NCBI RefSeq assembly: GCF_009914755.1
Contig: NC_060941.1
Length of the DNA: 64,000 nt
Source of the DNA: the human T2T-CHM13v2.0 reference genome, Homo sapiens
Strand: one strand, 5' to 3'
Positions 5,841-48,963 of the stretch are shown here, piece after piece. Both the position numbers and the translations under genes were made by a program. The notes under the pieces were generated by a model, which saw nothing but the letters and a program-made list of their open reading frames with translations, did no database searches and was not told the origin of the DNA. Within the stretch, counting starts at the first letter, position 1, and every line of letters starts with the position of its first letter.

Positions 5841-5959
5841 ACATATTCAACTGGAATACAAACAGGTAAGTACTTAGTTACAATGACACAGGAAGTTTTC
5901 AAGGAAACTGGGTGCCAAAACCTGTTACCAAACAAAAACAAAAAAAATGATCAAATGTT

Positions 5960-37807: not shown

Positions 37808-43326
<5,519 letters not shown>

Positions 43327-43807
43327 CCACCCTCTACTGACCCTCCCAGGGCATTCCAGCTCAAGCTGCTGGCAGGAACTGACCAGTTCTGTCCTTGGCT
43401 GGGGACCCTCCAGGCACTGGTGAGAGACATGAACACTGACTGGCCACTAGCTGGCCTGGCCCTGTTGAGTCTGCACAGTCCCTGCCCAGCTGTGTCTTCT
43501 GTTGGAAGAAGGAACCTGCCTTAGCTCAGTTTCCAGGTGGTTCCTCTGCCTGGCACCACAGCTACAAAGGTGTAGCTAAGAAGATGGCCCATTGGTGGGA
43601 GCAATGTCACCCTGCCTCCAGCTAGCTATGGGCCCAGAGTTTCTCCCTGAGTCGCTGTTGCTAGCAGGGAGATTTCTCTTCCTGCCCTCACTTCTTTCAC
43701 CTTGAACTTGGATAAGAACTCGTGTCTCCTGAGTGAGGTAGCGCCTCCCATCTGCTCCCCAATTCTTGATCTCTCCCACCCCATCCCTCTCCCCAGTCTT
43801 GGATACT

Positions 43808-43813
43808 AATAAA
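43808..43813 (+). terminator. ERAL1: ERAL1 polyadenylation signal AATAAA
   Basis: First AATAAA after the stop (~480 nt 3'UTR), followed by T-rich downstream sequence. Confidence 0.85.
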
Positions 43814-44141
43814 ATATAAGCATTCTGGTTCTCATCTTTATTCCTTTTATTTATTTATTTTTATTTTTTAATATTAGGGACTGAGTCTCACTATGTTGTC
43901 TAGGCTGGTCTCAAACTCCTGGGCTCAAGAAATCCTCCTGCCTTGGCCTCTGAAAGTGGTGGGATTACAGGCGTGAGCCACTGTGCCTGGCTTATCTTTA
44001 TTTCTTTACAACAGGAAAGAGAAAATGTATCTATTCCCTCCCCTACCCCCAATCCCACGCCCCCACCCCTGCCTTGTTTGAGCTGGAGTCTCCCTTCCAG
44101 TAGTCTGCTTCAGGGTCCTGAGTTCTCTTCCTGGCACGTTT

Positions 44142-44213
44142 TCTGGGTATAGCAAGAGAACCATTACCATTACTAAACTCAGTAATGGTAACGGTTTCCT
44201 TGCCATTCCCAAG
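44142..44213 (-). ncRNA. MIR451A: pre-miR-451a (mature AAACCGUUACCAUUACUGAGUU at 44176-44197); Dicer-independent, AGO2-sliced
   Basis: Exact reverse complement of the known 72-nt hairpin. Confidence 0.98.
44144..44211 (+). ncRNA. MIR451B: MIR451B annotation (antisense reading of the same hairpin)
   Basis: UAGCAAGAGAACCAUUACCAUU at 44150-44171; biological reality doubtful. Confidence 0.55.
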
Positions 44214-44305
44214 TGCCCTGGCAGTCAGTAGGTTGTGACAGGCTGAGCAGAGAGCTTCTTGGGCTTGCAGCATCTCTCCTGTCCTCCTTGTCAGGCTCCA
44301 GAGCT

Positions 44306-44391
44306 GGGGGTGCCCGGACTAGTACATCATCTATACTGTAGTGTCTCATCGCAAACTTACAGTATATGATGATATCCCAGCCAGGGCCCCA
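44306..44391 (-). ncRNA. MIR144: pre-miR-144 (3p at 44321-44340; 5p at 44356-44377)
   Basis: Reverse complement contains UACAGUAUAGAUGAUGUACU and GGAUAUCAUCAUAUACUGUAAG. Confidence 0.98.
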
Positions 44392-44427
44392 CTGGGGGCA
44401 CAGGAAGCATGGCTTGAAAAGCACTGT

Positions 44428-44503
44428 GAGGGGCTGGGGGCAGAACAGGACAGGTCAGGGCTGGACACACACAGCTTCCTGCTCCCTGCTCTACAGCTCC
44501 CTC
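44428..44503 (-). ncRNA. MIR4732: pre-miR-4732
   Basis: Reverse complement contains UGUAGAGCAGGGAGCAGGAAGCU (5p) and GCCCUGACCUGUCCUGUUCUG (3p). Confidence 0.93.
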
Positions 44504-44749
44504 GCAGGCCAGCGTCTCCTTGATTCTGTGGTCAGGCACAGCCCAGGTGGGTTATGGGAAGGGGACTGGAGCTAGGGTCTGTTAAGATCTCATAGGGACC
44601 CAGGGCCAGTGTTAAACAAGCCAGAGATGGCGTAATGATGCAGAAGGTTCCCTTTGGTCACACTAACAAGCAGACAGGCAGACAGACCCAGAGAAGGTGC
44701 ACTTACCTGGAGCTGGAACTGCAGACTGAGGAGGCCTTTGGATGCAGGG

Positions 44750-44830
44750 AGGATCTGTCCCTCAAGCTGCTTGCCTTTTATCATACCGGTCCCTCCCCTG
44801 GGTGGGGCACTTTTCCTGGCCCTGCCTCTT
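44750..44830 (-). promoter_or_regulatory. Putative core promoter of pri-miR-4732/144/451: GATA-type TATA box (TGATAAAAG, 44775-44783) and KLF CACCC box (44800-44808)
   Basis: Motifs read directly; a consensus donor CAG|GTAAGT lies ~70 nt downstream. Confidence 0.6.
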
Positions 44831-47800
44831 AACCCTTGCCCTGCTAGAGTCCATGACAAGGGTCACTGGCCCCTTTCCCTAGAAGGCCTTTTCTCACATA
44901 CTCTCTCATGGACCATATTCACCCTTCACTCCCATCTCCAAGAAGCTCATCATCTCTGCCGGGCTGGGAAGGAGAAAGAACAGCCTCATCCCATCCACCA
45001 GCATTTAATTGCTGGTCAGATCCCTAGTGGAAGGTTTCTCGTTTTTGCTTTTTTTGTTTTTGTTTTTGTTTTGCAGTGGTGGTAGGCAATGTTAGTTGAA
45101 TCTCTCTGTATAGGGCAGGAAGGGTCCTGGCAACTGGATCTCCAGAATCTGTCTGGCAGCCGAGCTCACCCTACCCGTCAGCCTAAATTTCTATTCCCAG
45201 CCCCTGCCCCTGTGTTTATGATGAGCCCAAGGAGGCCAGACCTAGGCAGGCAGAGAGACTCTGCCTAGCACTGCCCTGGCAAGGTCCTCTTGGGGGTTGC
45301 TCTACTAGGAGATTTGAGAGCAGCTGAATCCCCAGCTCTTGTGGGTCTGCTCTTCAAAGCTCAAGGCACCTCCAGTGAGAGCCTAGCACTGTTTGGTTCT
45401 TTGCCTCTGGGGTAGAGGAGAGGCTCCTCAAAGCAAGGCCTCTGCTGTTTAGAATCCCCATTCTGGGGGACACGCCCTTCCCTCTTCCCTATCCTAGACA
45501 ATCTGGTCTGTGTGCTGGAAGGCAGTTAATACTCTTCCTCTGCGGGGGTAGACTAGACCAGGATGGAAGTGGGAGAAGAGACCCAACCTTTTCTGGGTCC
45601 TGTGGAGGTGTTCTATTTCCTGAGGTCACAGCACGCTGGCACATGCTCTACCCTCTGCTTAGCATGGTCTTCCCTCCTTTCTTGTCTAGTTAGCTCCTAG
45701 CCCCTCTTCAGAGCTCTTTTTTTTTCCTTCCTTTTTTTTGAGACAATTTAACTCTGTCACCCAGGTTGGAGTGCAGTTGTGTCATCATGGCTCACTGCAG
45801 ACTCCCTGGGCTCAGGTGATCCTCCCACCTCAGCCTCCCAAGTAGCTGGGACTACAGGCGTACACCACCACACCTGGCTAATTTTTGTATTTTTAGTGGA
45901 GATGGGGTTTCGCCATGTTGTCTAGGCTGCTCTCAAACTCCTGGGCTCAAGTGATCCGCCCACATGGGCTCCCAGAGTGCTGGGATTACAGGCGTGAGCC
46001 ACCGCACCAGCCTCCCTCTTCACATCTCTAAGTGTTACTTCTGCAGGGAAGTCTTCCCAGACTATTTAAGTCTCCCTGATAGGGACTTATTTATTTGTGT
46101 GATTATTCACATTAAGTAAATAGTCATGAGGGCCTTGTTTATTCACTAATATATTTCTGTGTTTTTGTTTTTGTTTTTTGTTTTTTTTTAGCGAGAGTCT
46201 TGCTCTGTCGCCCAGGCTGGAGTACAGTAGCATAATCTCAGCTCACTGCAACCTCCGCCTCCTGGGTTCAAGCGATTCTCCTGCCTCAGCCTCCTGAGTA
46301 GCTGGGACTACAGGTACTCGCTGCCACGCCCAGCTAATTTTTTGTATTTTTAGTAGAGACAGGCTTTCACCGTGTTGCCCAGGCTGGTGTCGAACTCTTG
46401 AGCTCAGGCGATCCGCCCGCCTCAGCCTCCCAAAGTGCTGGGATTACAGGCGTGAGCCACTGCGCCCAGCTCACTGATGTACTTCTATCACATAATTAAC
46501 AACTAAATAAATGTTCCAGCCTACATCAAGCTGAGCCTAATGTAATATGGGGGAGGAGAGAGACCTTGGCCTGAGGAGGCAGATGGACAAAGCTGTGGCT
46601 CTCTCAGGCAAGCCATTTTCTCTCTGGGACCCTCCCTGTTCTTATTTGTAAATAGGAATAACAATAGTCCCCAGTTCACAGAGTTGCCAGATCTAGGGGA
46701 TCAGCTGCTGGTGCCGGTCAACAGAAGGGGTTCAAACAAGTTCATTCCCACCTCACCCCATTCCCTCAGGGACCCCCACAAGGCCTGTCCTTGAACATCT
46801 GAAAGCCCATGGAATATTATTGAAAGCCACCTGGGACCATTGCAAGAACCCAGGTCTAGAGGTGACAGGTCCCAAGTGACAGTCTCAGCTGTGCTGCATC
46901 CAGCTCTGTGACTTTGGACCAAGTGTTCCCACTCACAGTTTCCTCAAATTTAAAATGGCAGCTGTCAATACCAACCTTATACAGTGATGAAGAGGGTGAT
47001 ACGAGCACTCATCTCAAGCTCCCAGATCAGGTCCTAGCACATATGAAACAAATGTCAGTTTCCTTCTTTACTTCTTTCTTCTGTCTCACAAACTGTGTGA
47101 CTGGGGACAAATTGCACTTCTCTGAGCTTTGGTGGTTATACACATCTTGCCAAGTTGTAAGAGTCAAGTCAGAAATATGAGTGAGAGCCCAGGCATGGTG
47201 GCTCACGATTGTAATCCCAGAACTTTGGGAGGTTGAGGGGGGCAGATCACTTAAGCCCAGGAGTTCAAGACCAGCCTGGGTAACATAGTGAGACCCCATC
47301 TCTACTAAAAGTACGAAAAAAAAAAAAAAAAGAAAACAAATTAGCCAGTTGTGGTGGCATGTGCCTATATAGTCCCAACTACTTGGTGGGCTGTGGTGAG
47401 AGGATCACTTTAGCCTGGAAAGTCGAGGCTGCAATGAGCCATGTTTGCACCACTGCACTTCAGCCTGGGTGACAAGAGTGAGACTCTACCTCAAAAAAAA
47501 AAAAAAAAAAAGAAAAAGAAATATAGAAAGATGAGTGAGGGCCAGGTGCGGTGGCTCACGCCTGTAATCCCAGCACTTTGGGAGGCTGAGGTGGGTGGAT
47601 AATTCGAGGTCAGGAGTTTGAGACCAGCCTGGCCAACATGGAGAAACCCCATCTCTACTAAAAATACAAAAAATTAGCCGGGCGTGGTGGCAGCACCAGT
47701 AATCCCAACTACTCGGGAGGCTGAGGCACAAGAATTGCTTAAACCCAGGAGGCAGAGGTTGCTGTGAGCCAAGACTGCACCACTGCCATCTACGCTGGGT

Positions 47801-48119
47801 GACAGAATGAGACTCCGTTTAAAAAAAAAAAAAAGATGAGCGACAAAGCTTCTGAAATCCAGCTGCTCTAACCAGGTGAGGCATTGTCGTTATGTCTGCT
47901 CCTGCTTCCCCTGACCCCCTTTCCTGTCCTGTGTCCCTCCTGCGAGGCCACCTCTACTCAGAAACCCCACAGACAGCTCAAGCTCCTTCAACAAAGGCAG
48001 GGCTTCGTGTACTAGGGCAAGCTTCATGCCACTTACTTCCTAGACTTCTGCCTAGTGCCTGGGGGCCAAGTCCAAAGGTGAGCATGGGCAGAACCTAGGC
48101 GTCCTAAAGGGAAAGGGGA

Positions 48120-48310
48120 GAGATTATCTCAGCCAGCCAGAGATCCTGTGGCTGTGGCCTCTGGCCAGGGGTGGGGATTGCTGTGAGTAGGGTGTGGGTT
48201 GGAGGAGAGTCTGGGCCTGGGTGGGATAGTCAGGGGGCCCTGATAAGCAGACATTGGGCTATCAGGGTGGGGGCCCAGCAGCCTTCTGTTTATCAGGAGC
48301 CAACACGGGC
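48120..48310. promoter_or_regulatory. Erythroid enhancer candidate: 4 WGATAR plus 4 CACCC/KLF1 motifs, including a GATA1::TAL1 composite
   Basis: TTATCT 48124, TGATAA 48241, CTATCA 48259, TTATCA 48290; GGGGTGGGG 48168, GGGTGTGGG 48190, GGGTGGG 48219, GGGTGGGG 48265. Confidence 0.75.
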
Positions 48311-48849
48311 CAAAGCAGGGCTGAGGCGCTTCCCGCCCAGGGCTGTTTTCCTGGATATTTGTTCTTCCATTCCTCTGCCTCCCCAGTACCCCACAGGGAG
48401 TTGGAATGTGAATCCCTCTGCCTCTCTGCAAGGCACATGGAGACTCTCTGGCCAGTACAGGGGTGGGAGGACACCAGCTAGGGCCTTGGGCCTGACTTTT
48501 AAATTCTGACAGCTTTTGCTTCAAACCAGGAGCTCCATGGCTTTTCTGAGGCCAGTGAGGCAAGTCTGGGGACTTCGTCCTTCTAACTTCAACCCCTGCC
48601 ACTGCAGCTTTAAGCTCTTGACTGTTCTTTAGGTCTTTTTTGGAAGAAGTCCTAAAGTGTATGGTGATGAAGTTAAGGATGGTCAGATCTGTACAGGTCC
48701 TTCAAAATCATGGAGTTCAAGTCTCCCATTTATATAGGAGAGAAACTGAAGGCAGAGAGGAGGAGAGAATTGTCCAAAGCTTAAGGGTTCCCTCCACCTC
48801 TCAGCATCGGAGAACAATGCATGACTCAGAGGAACAGGAAGCAGCCATA

Positions 48850-48963
48850 GACACTCACAGACAGATACACATAATATGCAAAACACACACATACAAATGC
48901 ACACATGTGCACTGCCCACATGTACGCAGACATACAACACATAGAGATACACAGCATACACAT
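48850..48963. repeat. Degenerate (CA)-rich low-complexity tract
   Basis: ACACAT/ACACAC-like units. Confidence 0.7.

What the first reader, a model, noticed from the sequence alone, without database searches (positions are those of the whole stretch)
44424..44709. miR-4732 hairpin coincides with the branch point and 3' splice site of a predicted intron in pri-miR-144/451
Seen on the minus strand: a perfect donor CAG|GTAAGT (exon end 44707). About 270 nt downstream, the miR-4732 3' arm reads CCCUGAC (yUnAy branch point, A at 44455), then a pyrimidine tract CUGUCCUGUUCUGCCCC and CAG (AG at 44435-44434, 21 nt from the branch A), with a second CACAG at 44425-44424. Inference: a 273- or 283-nt intron whose acceptor is base-paired inside pre-miR-4732. 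Splicing and Drosha cropping of miR-4732 would then be mutually exclusive (a splice-site-overlapping miRNA), and splicing would leave miR-144/451 in exon 2. Since miR-451 is known to need Microprocessor help from the neighbouring miR-144 hairpin, this switch could tune cluster output. It also suggests miR-4732 arose from a pre-existing acceptor. I cannot confirm this is unpublished.
Basis: partly seen in the sequence, partly recalled or inferred. Interest (0 to 1): 0.8.

Follow-up and report, generated by a model that had tools for sequence, protein, structure and literature searches.

The report
Possible splice acceptor inside miR-4732 hairpin
A textbook splice donor just after the start of the human red-cell microRNA transcript, and a good acceptor buried in the miR-4732 hairpin, are really there and could define a small intron whose removal would destroy miR-4732, but nobody has yet shown that it is spliced.

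Summary
These are CAG|GTAAGT (exon end 44707), CTGAC with branch A 44455, a pyrimidine tract, CAG ending at 44434, and CACAG ending at 44424. The donor is the only perfect 9-mer on that strand in 64 kb. It lies about 33-50 nt below an inferred start site marked by CACCC and TGATAAAAGG boxes. In the fold, the acceptor AG pairs with the first bases of the 5p arm (P>=0.99) and the branch A is unpaired.

Whether the intron is used is not shown. I could reach no RNA-seq data. RefSeq lists no host gene. The one published 5'-RACE (HepG2, PMC7927270) draws a single exon. Against that, a published and unexplained ~250-nt erythrocyte RNA (PMC4647483) maps inside the proposed intron. Its size matches the 252-nt lariat circle, though also the capped leader.

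My best reading is a partly used 273-nt first intron, built like the known splice-site-overlapping miR-34b (confidence 0.45). The "switch that tunes the cluster" and "arose from an older acceptor" ideas have no support. None of my 10 full-text searches found this in print. If real, it is a new member of a known kind.

The parts
44800..44804 (-). CACCC box upstream of the inferred start site
   Evidence: motif scan; naming it a KLF1-type erythroid promoter motif is from recall
44774..44783 (-). TGATAAAAGG: GATA motif overlapping a TATA-like ATAAAA box, the inferred -30 element
   Evidence: the only WGATAR and the only TATA-like match in 44700-45150 on this strand
44707..44756 (-). putative exon 1; 5' end inferred at about 44739-44756, 3' end at the donor
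   Evidence: inference from the TATA-like box and from the 5'-RACE and enhancer distance in PMC7927270; the exact start site was not seen
44701..44709 (-). consensus 5' splice site CAG|GTAAGT (9 of 9)
44434..44706 (-). putative 273-nt intron (283 nt if the acceptor at 44424 is used)
   Evidence: use not shown
44475..44656 (-). RT-PCR amplicon of the published 'miR-4732 region lncRNA' of erythrocytes, entirely inside the putative intron
   Evidence: primers from the PMC4647483 supplement, mapped
44428..44503 (-). pre-miR-4732 hairpin (5p 44495-44473, 3p 44461-44441)
   Evidence: hub annotation; fold (-49.1 kcal/mol for 111 nt, z -2.19); no Rfam family at the gathering score
44454..44458 (-). 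CTGAC branch-point motif; A 44455 is nt 7 of miR-4732-3p and unpaired in the hairpin
44437..44453 (-). pyrimidine tract, which is the 3' part of miR-4732-3p plus CCCC
   Evidence: 15 of 19 pyrimidines
44434..44436 (-). CAG acceptor; the AG pairs with U44495 and C44496
44424..44428 (-). CACAG alternative acceptor in the extended basal stem
44306..44391 (-). MIR144 hairpin, 36 nt below pre-miR-4732; it would lie in exon 2
   Evidence: hub annotation; Rfam RF00682, 100.9 bits
44142..44213 (-). MIR451A hairpin
   Evidence: hub annotation; Rfam RF00722, 96.1 bits
43997..44002 (-). first AATAAA below the cluster, followed by Alu-like sequence; likely end of the roughly 0.75-kb transcription unit
   Evidence: use of this signal is inferred

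Best explanation
The human miR-4732/144/451 primary transcript is a compact unit of about 0.75 kb. It runs from a start site near 44739-44756 to an AATAAA at 44002. I propose that it has a short first exon of about 33-50 nt ending in a perfect 5' splice site, followed by a 273-nt first intron. The branch point, pyrimidine tract and AG of that intron are the 3' arm and lower stem of the miR-4732 hairpin. This is the 3' splice-site-overlapping (SO) miRNA layout already shown for miR-34b.

The intron is probably used only in part. On a given nascent RNA there are two exclusive outcomes. Either the hairpin forms and the Microprocessor crops it, which removes the acceptor. Or U2AF and U2 open it and the intron is spliced out. 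In the second case the branch forms at nt 7 of miR-4732-3p and only a 7-nt lower stem is left, so no miR-4732 can be made.

miR-144 and miR-451 lie in exon 2 either way, and nothing shows that they depend on the choice.

What is shown: the motifs, their rarity, the pairing geometry, and a stable erythrocyte RNA made of the intron's sequence. What is inferred: the start site, use of the junction, and the competition.
For: 1. The donor is the only 9-of-9 match on the strand in 64 kb. It is stronger than all 11 annotated donors in the window, which match 5-7 of 9. It lies 33-50 nt below the inferred start.
2. The acceptor has CTGAC, 15 of 19 pyrimidines and CAG, with 21 nt from branch A to AG and no AG between. 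It is one of 6 such strict sites on the strand and the only one within 43000-46000.
3. There is no competing distant acceptor before AATAAA at 44002. The next YAG with at least 15 of 19 pyrimidines is at 41667.
4. The branch A is unpaired in the hairpin, in a 5-nt internal loop.
5. PMC4647483 reports a ~250-nt RNA in erythrocytes, from total RNA that was rRNA- and globin-depleted and random-primed. It covers 'only the 5' portion' of pre-miR-4732, and its authors left it unexplained. Its RT-PCR primers map to 44656-44637 and 44475-44494, inside the intron. The lariat circle 44706..44455 would be 252 nt and would contain the 5p arm where the reverse primer sits. A leader ending at a Drosha cut (44496 or 44492) would not contain that site.
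6. miR-4732 is far less abundant than its neighbours. In cultured erythroid cells the read counts are 1,288 for miR-4732-3p, 270,635 for miR-144-3p and 669,963 for miR-451a (PMC8616439 Table 1).
7. The same layout works for miR-34b, with the branch point in the hairpin and antagonism between Drosha and splicing (PMC3794580 abstract).
Against: 1. I saw no junction read, EST or annotation. RefSeq RS_2025_08 has no host gene here (hub table).
2. PMC7927270 sequenced a 664-bp 5'-RACE product from HepG2 and drew pri-miR-144/451a with one exon. From a start at 44739-44756, 664 nt unspliced ends at 44076-44093, just below pre-miR-451. A spliced product of that size would have to reach 43804-43821, beyond the AATAAA. 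So that product was most likely unspliced.
3. The DROSHA-inhibited A172 assembly of PMC4561498 is a single exon, window 44059-44394, with no junction. The supplementary GTF files were cut when stored, and that cell line is not erythroid.
4. The ~250-nt RNA fits a capped leader equally well by size: start to Drosha cut is about 244-265 nt. I could not see the figure that shows its ends.
5. The AG and most of the tract are paired in the hairpin, and exon 2 has no purine-rich enhancer like the one miR-34b needs.
6. No SpliceAI or MaxEntScan score could be computed here.
Confidence: 0.45

Rival explanations
1. The transcript is essentially unspliced. The perfect 5' splice site close to the cap acts as a promoter-proximal U1 snRNP binding site. 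Such a site could raise transcription and hold the nascent RNA on chromatin, which would favour co-transcriptional cropping of all three hairpins. On this view the acceptor-like motif is a by-product of the pyrimidine-rich 3' arm, and the ~250-nt erythrocyte RNA is the capped leader left after Drosha cuts miR-4732.
For: The published 5'-RACE model has one exon, and the 664-bp size fits an unspliced product. The A172 assembly is a single exon and RefSeq has no spliced model (hub table). The leader from start site to Drosha cut is about 244-265 nt, matching ~250 nt. The AG and tract are paired in the hairpin. The roles of promoter-proximal 5' splice sites and U1 in transcription and chromatin retention, and of retention in pri-miRNA processing, are recalled from the literature and were not read here.
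Against: A perfect donor with a good branch point, tract and AG 273 nt downstream would normally give at least some splicing. The reverse RT-PCR primer of PMC4647483 lies on the 5p arm (44475-44494), which a Drosha-cut leader would lack. It is unclear how a capped, non-polyadenylated leader would persist in anucleate cells.
Confidence: 0.3
2. The donor and acceptor motifs are chance matches with no role. The transcript is mono-exonic and miR-4732 is simply a weak, young hairpin.
For: A second perfect CAGGTAAGT lies at 5865 on the plus strand, where the gene table given with the finding lists no exon end. There are 23 loose composite acceptors per strand in 64 kb. The site was picked after inspection. 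The hairpin lacks a CNNC at +16 to +18, and its basal UG is one position off, which alone could explain the low yield.
Against: The joint placement is unlikely. A 9-of-9 donor is expected about once in 262 kb per strand, yet one lies within the first 50 nt of a 0.75-kb unit. The only strict composite acceptor within 3 kb lies 273 nt downstream of it.
Confidence: 0.15
3. Part of miR-4732 is made by a splicing-dependent, 5'-tailed-mirtron-like route. After splicing and debranching, the hairpin's 3' end would be the intron end (G44434), and the long 5' tail would be trimmed back to the stem.
For: The annotated 5p start U44495 pairs with A44435, and C44496 pairs with G44434, so the 5p start sits exactly opposite the AG. 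The annotated 5p start (44495) and 3p end (44441) are 4 nt out of register for a single RNase III cut. The miRDeep precursor in PMC4647483 starts at 44491, which does fit the 3p end. This hints at two different sets of ends.
Against: The abundant 3p ends at 44441, 7 nt short of the intron end. A mirtron 3p should end at the AG. I saw no isomiR data and no Drosha-dependence data.
Confidence: 0.07

Closest known systems
3' splice-site-overlapping miRNA miR-34b (Mattioli, Pianigiani and Pagani 2013, PMC3794580; abstract and Table 1 read)
   Same: A non-coding transcript with the acceptor of its last exon inside the pri-miRNA hairpin and the branch point in the hairpin. Microprocessor and spliceosome are proposed to compete for the same nascent RNA.
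   Different: For miR-34b the junction is seen in vivo and the antagonism was tested in minigenes and by Drosha/DGCR8 knockdown. Here, use is not shown. The miR-34b acceptor lacks a pyrimidine tract and needs a purine-rich exonic enhancer. Here the tract is good and no such enhancer is visible. In this case the intron is the first one, the miRNA is primate-specific, and two conserved miRNAs lie just downstream in the same exon.
Catalogues of SO or junction miRNAs: 17 in PMC3794580 Table 1, 52 in PMC6097652, 45 RefSeq 'junction' miRNAs in PMC8471046, and the miR-205/MIR205HG example in PMC4561498
   Same: The same class: a pre-miRNA spanning an intron-exon junction.
   Different: miR-4732 is not among the 17. 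The string 4732 does not occur in the held main text of PMC6097652 or PMC8471046. These lists start from annotated or EST-supported junctions, and this locus has none. The supplements of PMC3794580 and PMC6097652 could not be read.
5'-tailed mirtrons (recalled; not read here)
   Same: [quoted passage not shown]
   Different: The dominant 3p ends 7 nt before the AG, and the lower stem continues into the exon. It therefore looks like a Drosha substrate rather than a splicing-defined hairpin.
Cluster assistance in miR-144/451 (Shang 2020, Fang and Bartel 2020, Kwon 2020, as summarised in review PMC13686912; passages read)
   Same: The same transcript. Neighbouring hairpins influence each other's cropping.
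   Different: That literature does not mention miR-4732. The string 4732 has 0 occurrences in each of the 13 listed papers that hold 'cluster assistance', out of 20 listed. It does not mention splicing of the endogenous transcript either: PMC10576077 has 2 'splic' hits, one in the introduction on mirtron hairpins and one a reference title.

Membership tests
Splice-site-overlapping (SO) miRNA | A genuine pre-miRNA hairpin that yields mature miRNAs | tested here: met
   RefSeq MIR4732 (hub table). Fold of -49.1 kcal/mol, z -2.19. 5p and 3p reads in erythrocytes and erythroblasts (PMC4647483 supplement; PMC8616439 Table 1). No Rfam family covers it.
Splice-site-overlapping (SO) miRNA | A splice-site sequence located inside the hairpin | tested here: met
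   CTGAC, pyrimidine tract and CAG lie at 44458-44434 within pre-miR-4732 (44503-44428). The AG pairs with the 5' arm. This shows the motif only.
Splice-site-overlapping (SO) miRNA | The splice site is used in vivo (spliced EST, RNA-seq or RT-PCR junction) | not testable with these tools
   No read data were reachable. Indirect evidence is mixed. The HepG2 5'-RACE shows one exon and the A172 assembly is a single exon. Against that, an intron-derived ~250-nt erythrocyte RNA is compatible with a 252-nt lariat.
Splice-site-overlapping (SO) miRNA | Inverse relation between splicing and miRNA yield (Drosha knockdown raises splicing; splice-site mutation raises the miRNA) | not tested
   This needs a minigene, a base edit or knockdown data.
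Mirtron / 5'-tailed mirtron | The hairpin's 3' end coincides with the intron's 3' end (3p ends at the AG) | tested here: not met
   The annotated and dominant 3p ends at 44441, while the intron would end at 44434. Only the 5p start lines up opposite the AG.
Mirtron / 5'-tailed mirtron | Independence from Drosha/DGCR8 | not testable with these tools
   I saw no knockout small-RNA data for this miRNA.

The most novel reading that the evidence does not exclude
The abundant and so far unexplained ~250-nt 'lncRNA' of human erythrocytes is the stable lariat of this intron. It would be a 252-nt circle branched at A44455, which is nt 7 in the seed of miR-4732-3p. If so, the intron is spliced at a high rate in terminal erythropoiesis, and each splicing event locks one miR-4732 hairpin into a lariat that cannot be cropped and that outlives the nucleus. 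Splicing versus cropping at this primate-specific hairpin would then set miR-4732 output. Because the hairpin sits only 36 nt from miR-144, it could possibly also affect Microprocessor access to the neighbouring hairpins.
Probability: 0.2. Interest if true: 0.65.

Novelty: new member of a known kind. Interest (0 to 1): 0.45.

Why it matters
miR-144/451 is the dominant erythroid miRNA locus and the standard model for cluster assistance, yet its endogenous human transcript structure is barely described. If the intron is real, three things follow:

- It adds a splicing layer to this locus.
- It gives a concrete identity (lariat or leader) to a published but unexplained erythrocyte RNA.
- It offers an example of a young, primate-specific miRNA sitting on a 3' splice site.

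The gain is limited. The SO-miRNA principle is known. miR-4732 is minor compared with its neighbours, and its knockout did not visibly change differentiation kinetics in HUDEP-2 cells (PMC11020096). Nothing indicates that miR-144/451 output depends on the choice. The question can be settled quickly with existing public reads.

Tried and rejected
- None of the 9 papers holding 'miR-4732' and 'splice site', and none of the 18 holding 'miR-4732', 'intron' and 'Drosha', has a title or abstract about this locus's splicing (listings only).
- A search for the six host-gene terms (MIR144HG, MIR451HG, MIR4732HG, MIR451AHG, 'miR-144 host gene', 'miR-451 host gene') found 3 papers, each holding MIR144HG once. 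None of their titles or abstracts is about the human erythroid transcript (texts not opened).
- Dore 2008 (PNAS; mouse pri-miR-144/451) and de Rie 2017 (FANTOM5 promoters) are not held, so mouse transcript structure and CAGE start sites were not seen.

**Supplements.**
- Those of PMC3794580 and PMC6097652 were unreadable.
- The GTFs of PMC4561498 were cut when stored. No exon boundary at the hg19 equivalents of 44707, 44433 or 44423 was found in what is held.
- Supplement look-ups closed, so the RACE primers and sequence of PMC7927270 were not seen.

**Other tools.**

**Splice scores and conservation.** No MaxEntScan or SpliceAI tables are on the script machine, so I used only consensus matches and a composite filter. 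No mammalian genomes are held, so conservation of the GT, branch point and AG was not checked.

**Alternatives considered and set aside.**
- A distant acceptor that would put the whole cluster in an intron: there is none before AATAAA at 44002.
- The acceptor CCCCCAG|TGG at 44393-44392, at the foot of mir-144: it lies behind three earlier AGs.
- TTAG at 44664: that intron would be only 44 nt.
- A second miR-4732-like gene on chromosome 5: the 30-nt copy does not fold (z 0.44).

Full report
**1. What is in the sequence**

Read on the minus strand, the region runs as follows:
- a CACCC box at 44804-44800;
- TGATAAAAGG at 44783-44774, a GATA motif fused to a TATA-like box; these are the only WGATAR and the only TATA-like matches in 44700-45150;
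- CAG|GTAAGT with the exon-end G at 44707;
- about 210 nt of unremarkable sequence;
- the miR-4732 hairpin (44503-44428), mir-144 (44391-44306) and mir-451 (44213-44142). The last two are confirmed by Rfam at 100.9 and 96.1 bits. No Rfam family covers miR-4732;
- the first AATAAA at 44002, followed by Alu-like sequence.

Inside the 3' arm of miR-4732 lie CTGAC (A at 44455, nt 7 of miR-4732-3p), the tract CTGTCCTGTTCTGCCCC, then CAG (G at 44434), and 10 nt further CACAG (G at 44424). So are the intron lengths of 273 and 283 nt and the 21-nt spacing from branch A to AG.

**2. Is it more than chance?**

- The perfect 9-mer occurs once per strand in the window.
- Only 3 donors on the minus strand match at least 8 of 9 positions, and one of the other two (17054) is an annotated FAM222B donor (hub table).
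- The 11 annotated donors of ERAL1 and FLOT2 in the window match 5-7 of 9.
- A composite acceptor filter (YAG, at least 15 of 19 pyrimidines, a branch motif 16-40 nt upstream, no AG between) finds 23 sites on the minus strand with yTnAy and 6 with CTRAY. Site 44435 is the only one between 43000 and 46000. Just 1 of 9 real ERAL1 acceptors passes.

So both sites are of textbook quality, and having both within 273 nt near a transcript's 5' end is unlikely by chance. The caveats are that the filter was built after the fact, and that a pyrimidine-rich 3' arm is the automatic mirror of the purine-rich 5' arm.

**3. Structure**

The hairpin folds at -49.1 kcal/mol in a 111-nt context, with z = -2.19 and 2 of 200 shuffles folding as well. 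All three hairpins persist in a fold of the 771-nt unit.

In the minimum-energy structure U44495 pairs with A44435 and C44496 with G44434, both at P>=0.99. G44441, the last base of the 3p, pairs with U44493. The branch A44455 opens a 5-nt internal loop and is unpaired at P 0.97-1.0. CACAG pairs with 44506-44507 in the extended basal stem.

In longer nascent contexts the tract is less firmly held. Its mean unpaired probability is 0.31, 0.76 and 0.27 for three transcript lengths. The last 40 intron bases are no more paired (0.46) than those of the 9 real ERAL1 acceptors (mean 0.39). So 'acceptor base-paired inside the hairpin' holds for the miRNA conformation, but that conformation does not have the ensemble to itself.

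The hairpin also lacks a CNNC at +16 to +18. CNNC starts at +1, +2, +5, +8 and +10 from the 3p cut. Its basal UG is one position off. A GUGUGUGU loop is present. It looks like a suboptimal Microprocessor substrate.

**4. Topology**

If the intron is removed, the 5' arm, the loop and the whole 3p go into the lariat. The 2'-5' branch sits in the 3p seed, and only 7 nt of lower stem remain 3' of the 3p end. The rest of the lower stem is exonic. If Drosha cuts first, the acceptor is severed from the donor. Mutual exclusivity therefore follows from geometry. This is inference, but it is safe.

**5. Where the transcript starts and ends**

The TATA-like box predicts a start near 44756-44743. PMC7927270 (passages read) did 5'-RACE for pri-miR-144/451a in HepG2. 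It reports a 664-bp fragment and an enhancer E1 3107 bp upstream of the start site. If E1 is the RefSeq cis-regulatory element 47846-48902, the start is about 44739. That identification is my assumption.

Either way the start lies upstream of the donor, so exon 1 would be 33-50 nt. With AATAAA at 44002, the unit is about 0.75 kb and offers no acceptor beyond the cluster.

**6. Evidence on use of the intron**

*Against.*
- PMC7927270 draws the transcript with one exon. 664 nt unspliced from 44739-44756 ends at 44076-44093, just below pre-miR-451, where a gene-specific primer would sensibly sit. A spliced 664-nt product would have to reach 43804-43821, past the AATAAA. The main RACE product in HepG2 was therefore probably unspliced. 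I could not see the primers or the sequence, because supplement look-ups closed.
- The DROSHA-inhibited assemblies of PMC4561498 hold one transcript here, A172.56997.1, a single exon at hg19 27188304-27188639. That is window 44059-44394, using the offset hg19 = window + 27144245 taken from the mir-4732 coordinates in PMC4647483. No boundary at the predicted junction coordinates occurs in the stored parts of those files, which were cut.
- RefSeq has no host gene (hub table).

*For, or at least suggestive.*
- PMC4647483 sequenced rRNA- and globin-depleted, random-primed total RNA of purified erythrocytes. [quoted passage not shown]
- Its primers (supplement) map to 44656-44637 and 44475-44494, so the amplicon lies wholly inside the proposed intron.
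- Two identities fit the size. The lariat circle 44706..44455 is 252 nt. The capped leader from the start site to the Drosha cut is about 244-265 nt.
- The reverse primer sits on the 5p arm. The lariat contains that arm, while a leader ending at 44496 or 44492 does not. A lariat would also explain an end inside the hairpin and persistence in anucleate cells.
- I could not see the figure, so this stays a lead.
- miR-4732 is also 200-500 times rarer than its neighbours in erythroid cultures: 1,288 against 270,635 and 669,963 reads (PMC8616439 Table 1). This fits either loss by splicing or poor cropping.

**7. A register oddity**

The annotated 5p start (44495) and 3p end (44441) are 4 nt out of register for one RNase III cut with a 2-nt overhang. 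The partner of 44441+2 is 44491, and that is where the miRDeep precursor in PMC4647483 begins. The annotated 5p start instead sits exactly opposite the acceptor AG. This could mean alternative Drosha cuts, or a minor splicing-derived (5'-tailed-mirtron-like) source of the 5p. But the dominant 3p does not end at the AG, so the locus fails the defining mirtron feature.

**8. Verdict on mechanism**

I put 0.45 on a real, partly used first intron with SO-miRNA behaviour. I put 0.30 on a U1-binding 5' splice site in an essentially unspliced pri-miRNA, with the acceptor incidental. I put 0.15 on chance and 0.07 on a mirtron-like contribution.

- That the switch tunes miR-144/451 output is untested.
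- That the miRNA arose from an older acceptor is not supported by anything I could reach. PMC4647483 states that the 3p seed, which contains the branch motif, is identical only among primates.

**9. Is it known?**

The principle is known. Examples are miR-34b (PMC3794580), the 52 SO-miRNAs of PMC6097652, miR-205 in PMC4561498 and the 45 junction miRNAs in PMC8471046.

miR-4732 is not in the 17 of PMC3794580 Table 1. The string 4732 is absent from the held main texts of PMC6097652, PMC11347158 and PMC8471046. A 2026 review of intra-cluster regulation (PMC13686912) discusses miR-144/451 and splicing separately and never mentions miR-4732. The 13 listed papers that hold 'cluster assistance' (of 20 listed) have 0 occurrences of 4732.

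None of my 10 searches found the claim. Unread supplements (PMC3794580, PMC6097652, PMC7927270) and the papers not held (Dore 2008, Melamed 2013, de Rie 2017) could still bear on it.

If real, it is a new member of a known kind.

**10. Score**

Interest is 0.45. This is a well-formed, cheaply testable hypothesis in a much-studied locus, and it may explain a published orphan RNA. But the class is known, the affected miRNA is minor, and use is unproven, with one published result pointing the other way.

Noticed in passing
window 44438-44467 (- strand) and L002:1501-1530 (G000:C5:61186216-61186245, +): A 30-nt stretch (TGTCCAG, the whole miR-4732-3p, then CC) has a second perfect copy on chromosome 5 of the same genome, with no flanking similarity. 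By my arithmetic about 5e-9 such matches are expected by chance. The chromosome 5 copy does not fold into a hairpin (z 0.44), and it also reads like a branch point, pyrimidine tract and CCAG acceptor. Its origin is unexplained. It could affect mapping of miR-4732-3p reads.
   Followed up: partly
window 44441-44495 (- strand): The annotated miR-4732-5p start (44495) and 3p end (44441) are 4 nt out of register for a single RNase III cut. The miRDeep precursor in PMC4647483 starts at 44491, which fits the 3p end. The annotated 5p start pairs exactly with the A of the candidate acceptor AG.
   Followed up: partly
window 44392-44393 (- strand): A further acceptor-like CCCCCAG|TGG sits right at the 5' foot of the mir-144 hairpin, preceded by CTTCCTGTGCCCCC. 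It lies behind three earlier AGs, so it is unlikely to be chosen.
   Followed up: no
window 44392-44427 (- strand): Only 36 nt separate pre-miR-4732 from pre-mir-144. A review (PMC13686912) reports that a 30-nt spacer between mir-144 and mir-451 abolished miR-451 maturation, while 120 nt was efficient. The tight spacing might matter for Microprocessor access. The cluster-assistance papers listed never mention miR-4732.
   Followed up: no
window 5865 (+ strand): The only other perfect CAGGTAAGT in the window has its exon-end G at 5865 on the plus strand. The gene table given with the finding lists no exon end at that place.
   Followed up: no
window 43902-43991 (- strand): Alu-like sequence begins right after the AATAAA at 44002 that probably ends the pri-miRNA. 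The 3' end of the human unit may therefore be shaped by a primate-specific insertion.
   Followed up: no
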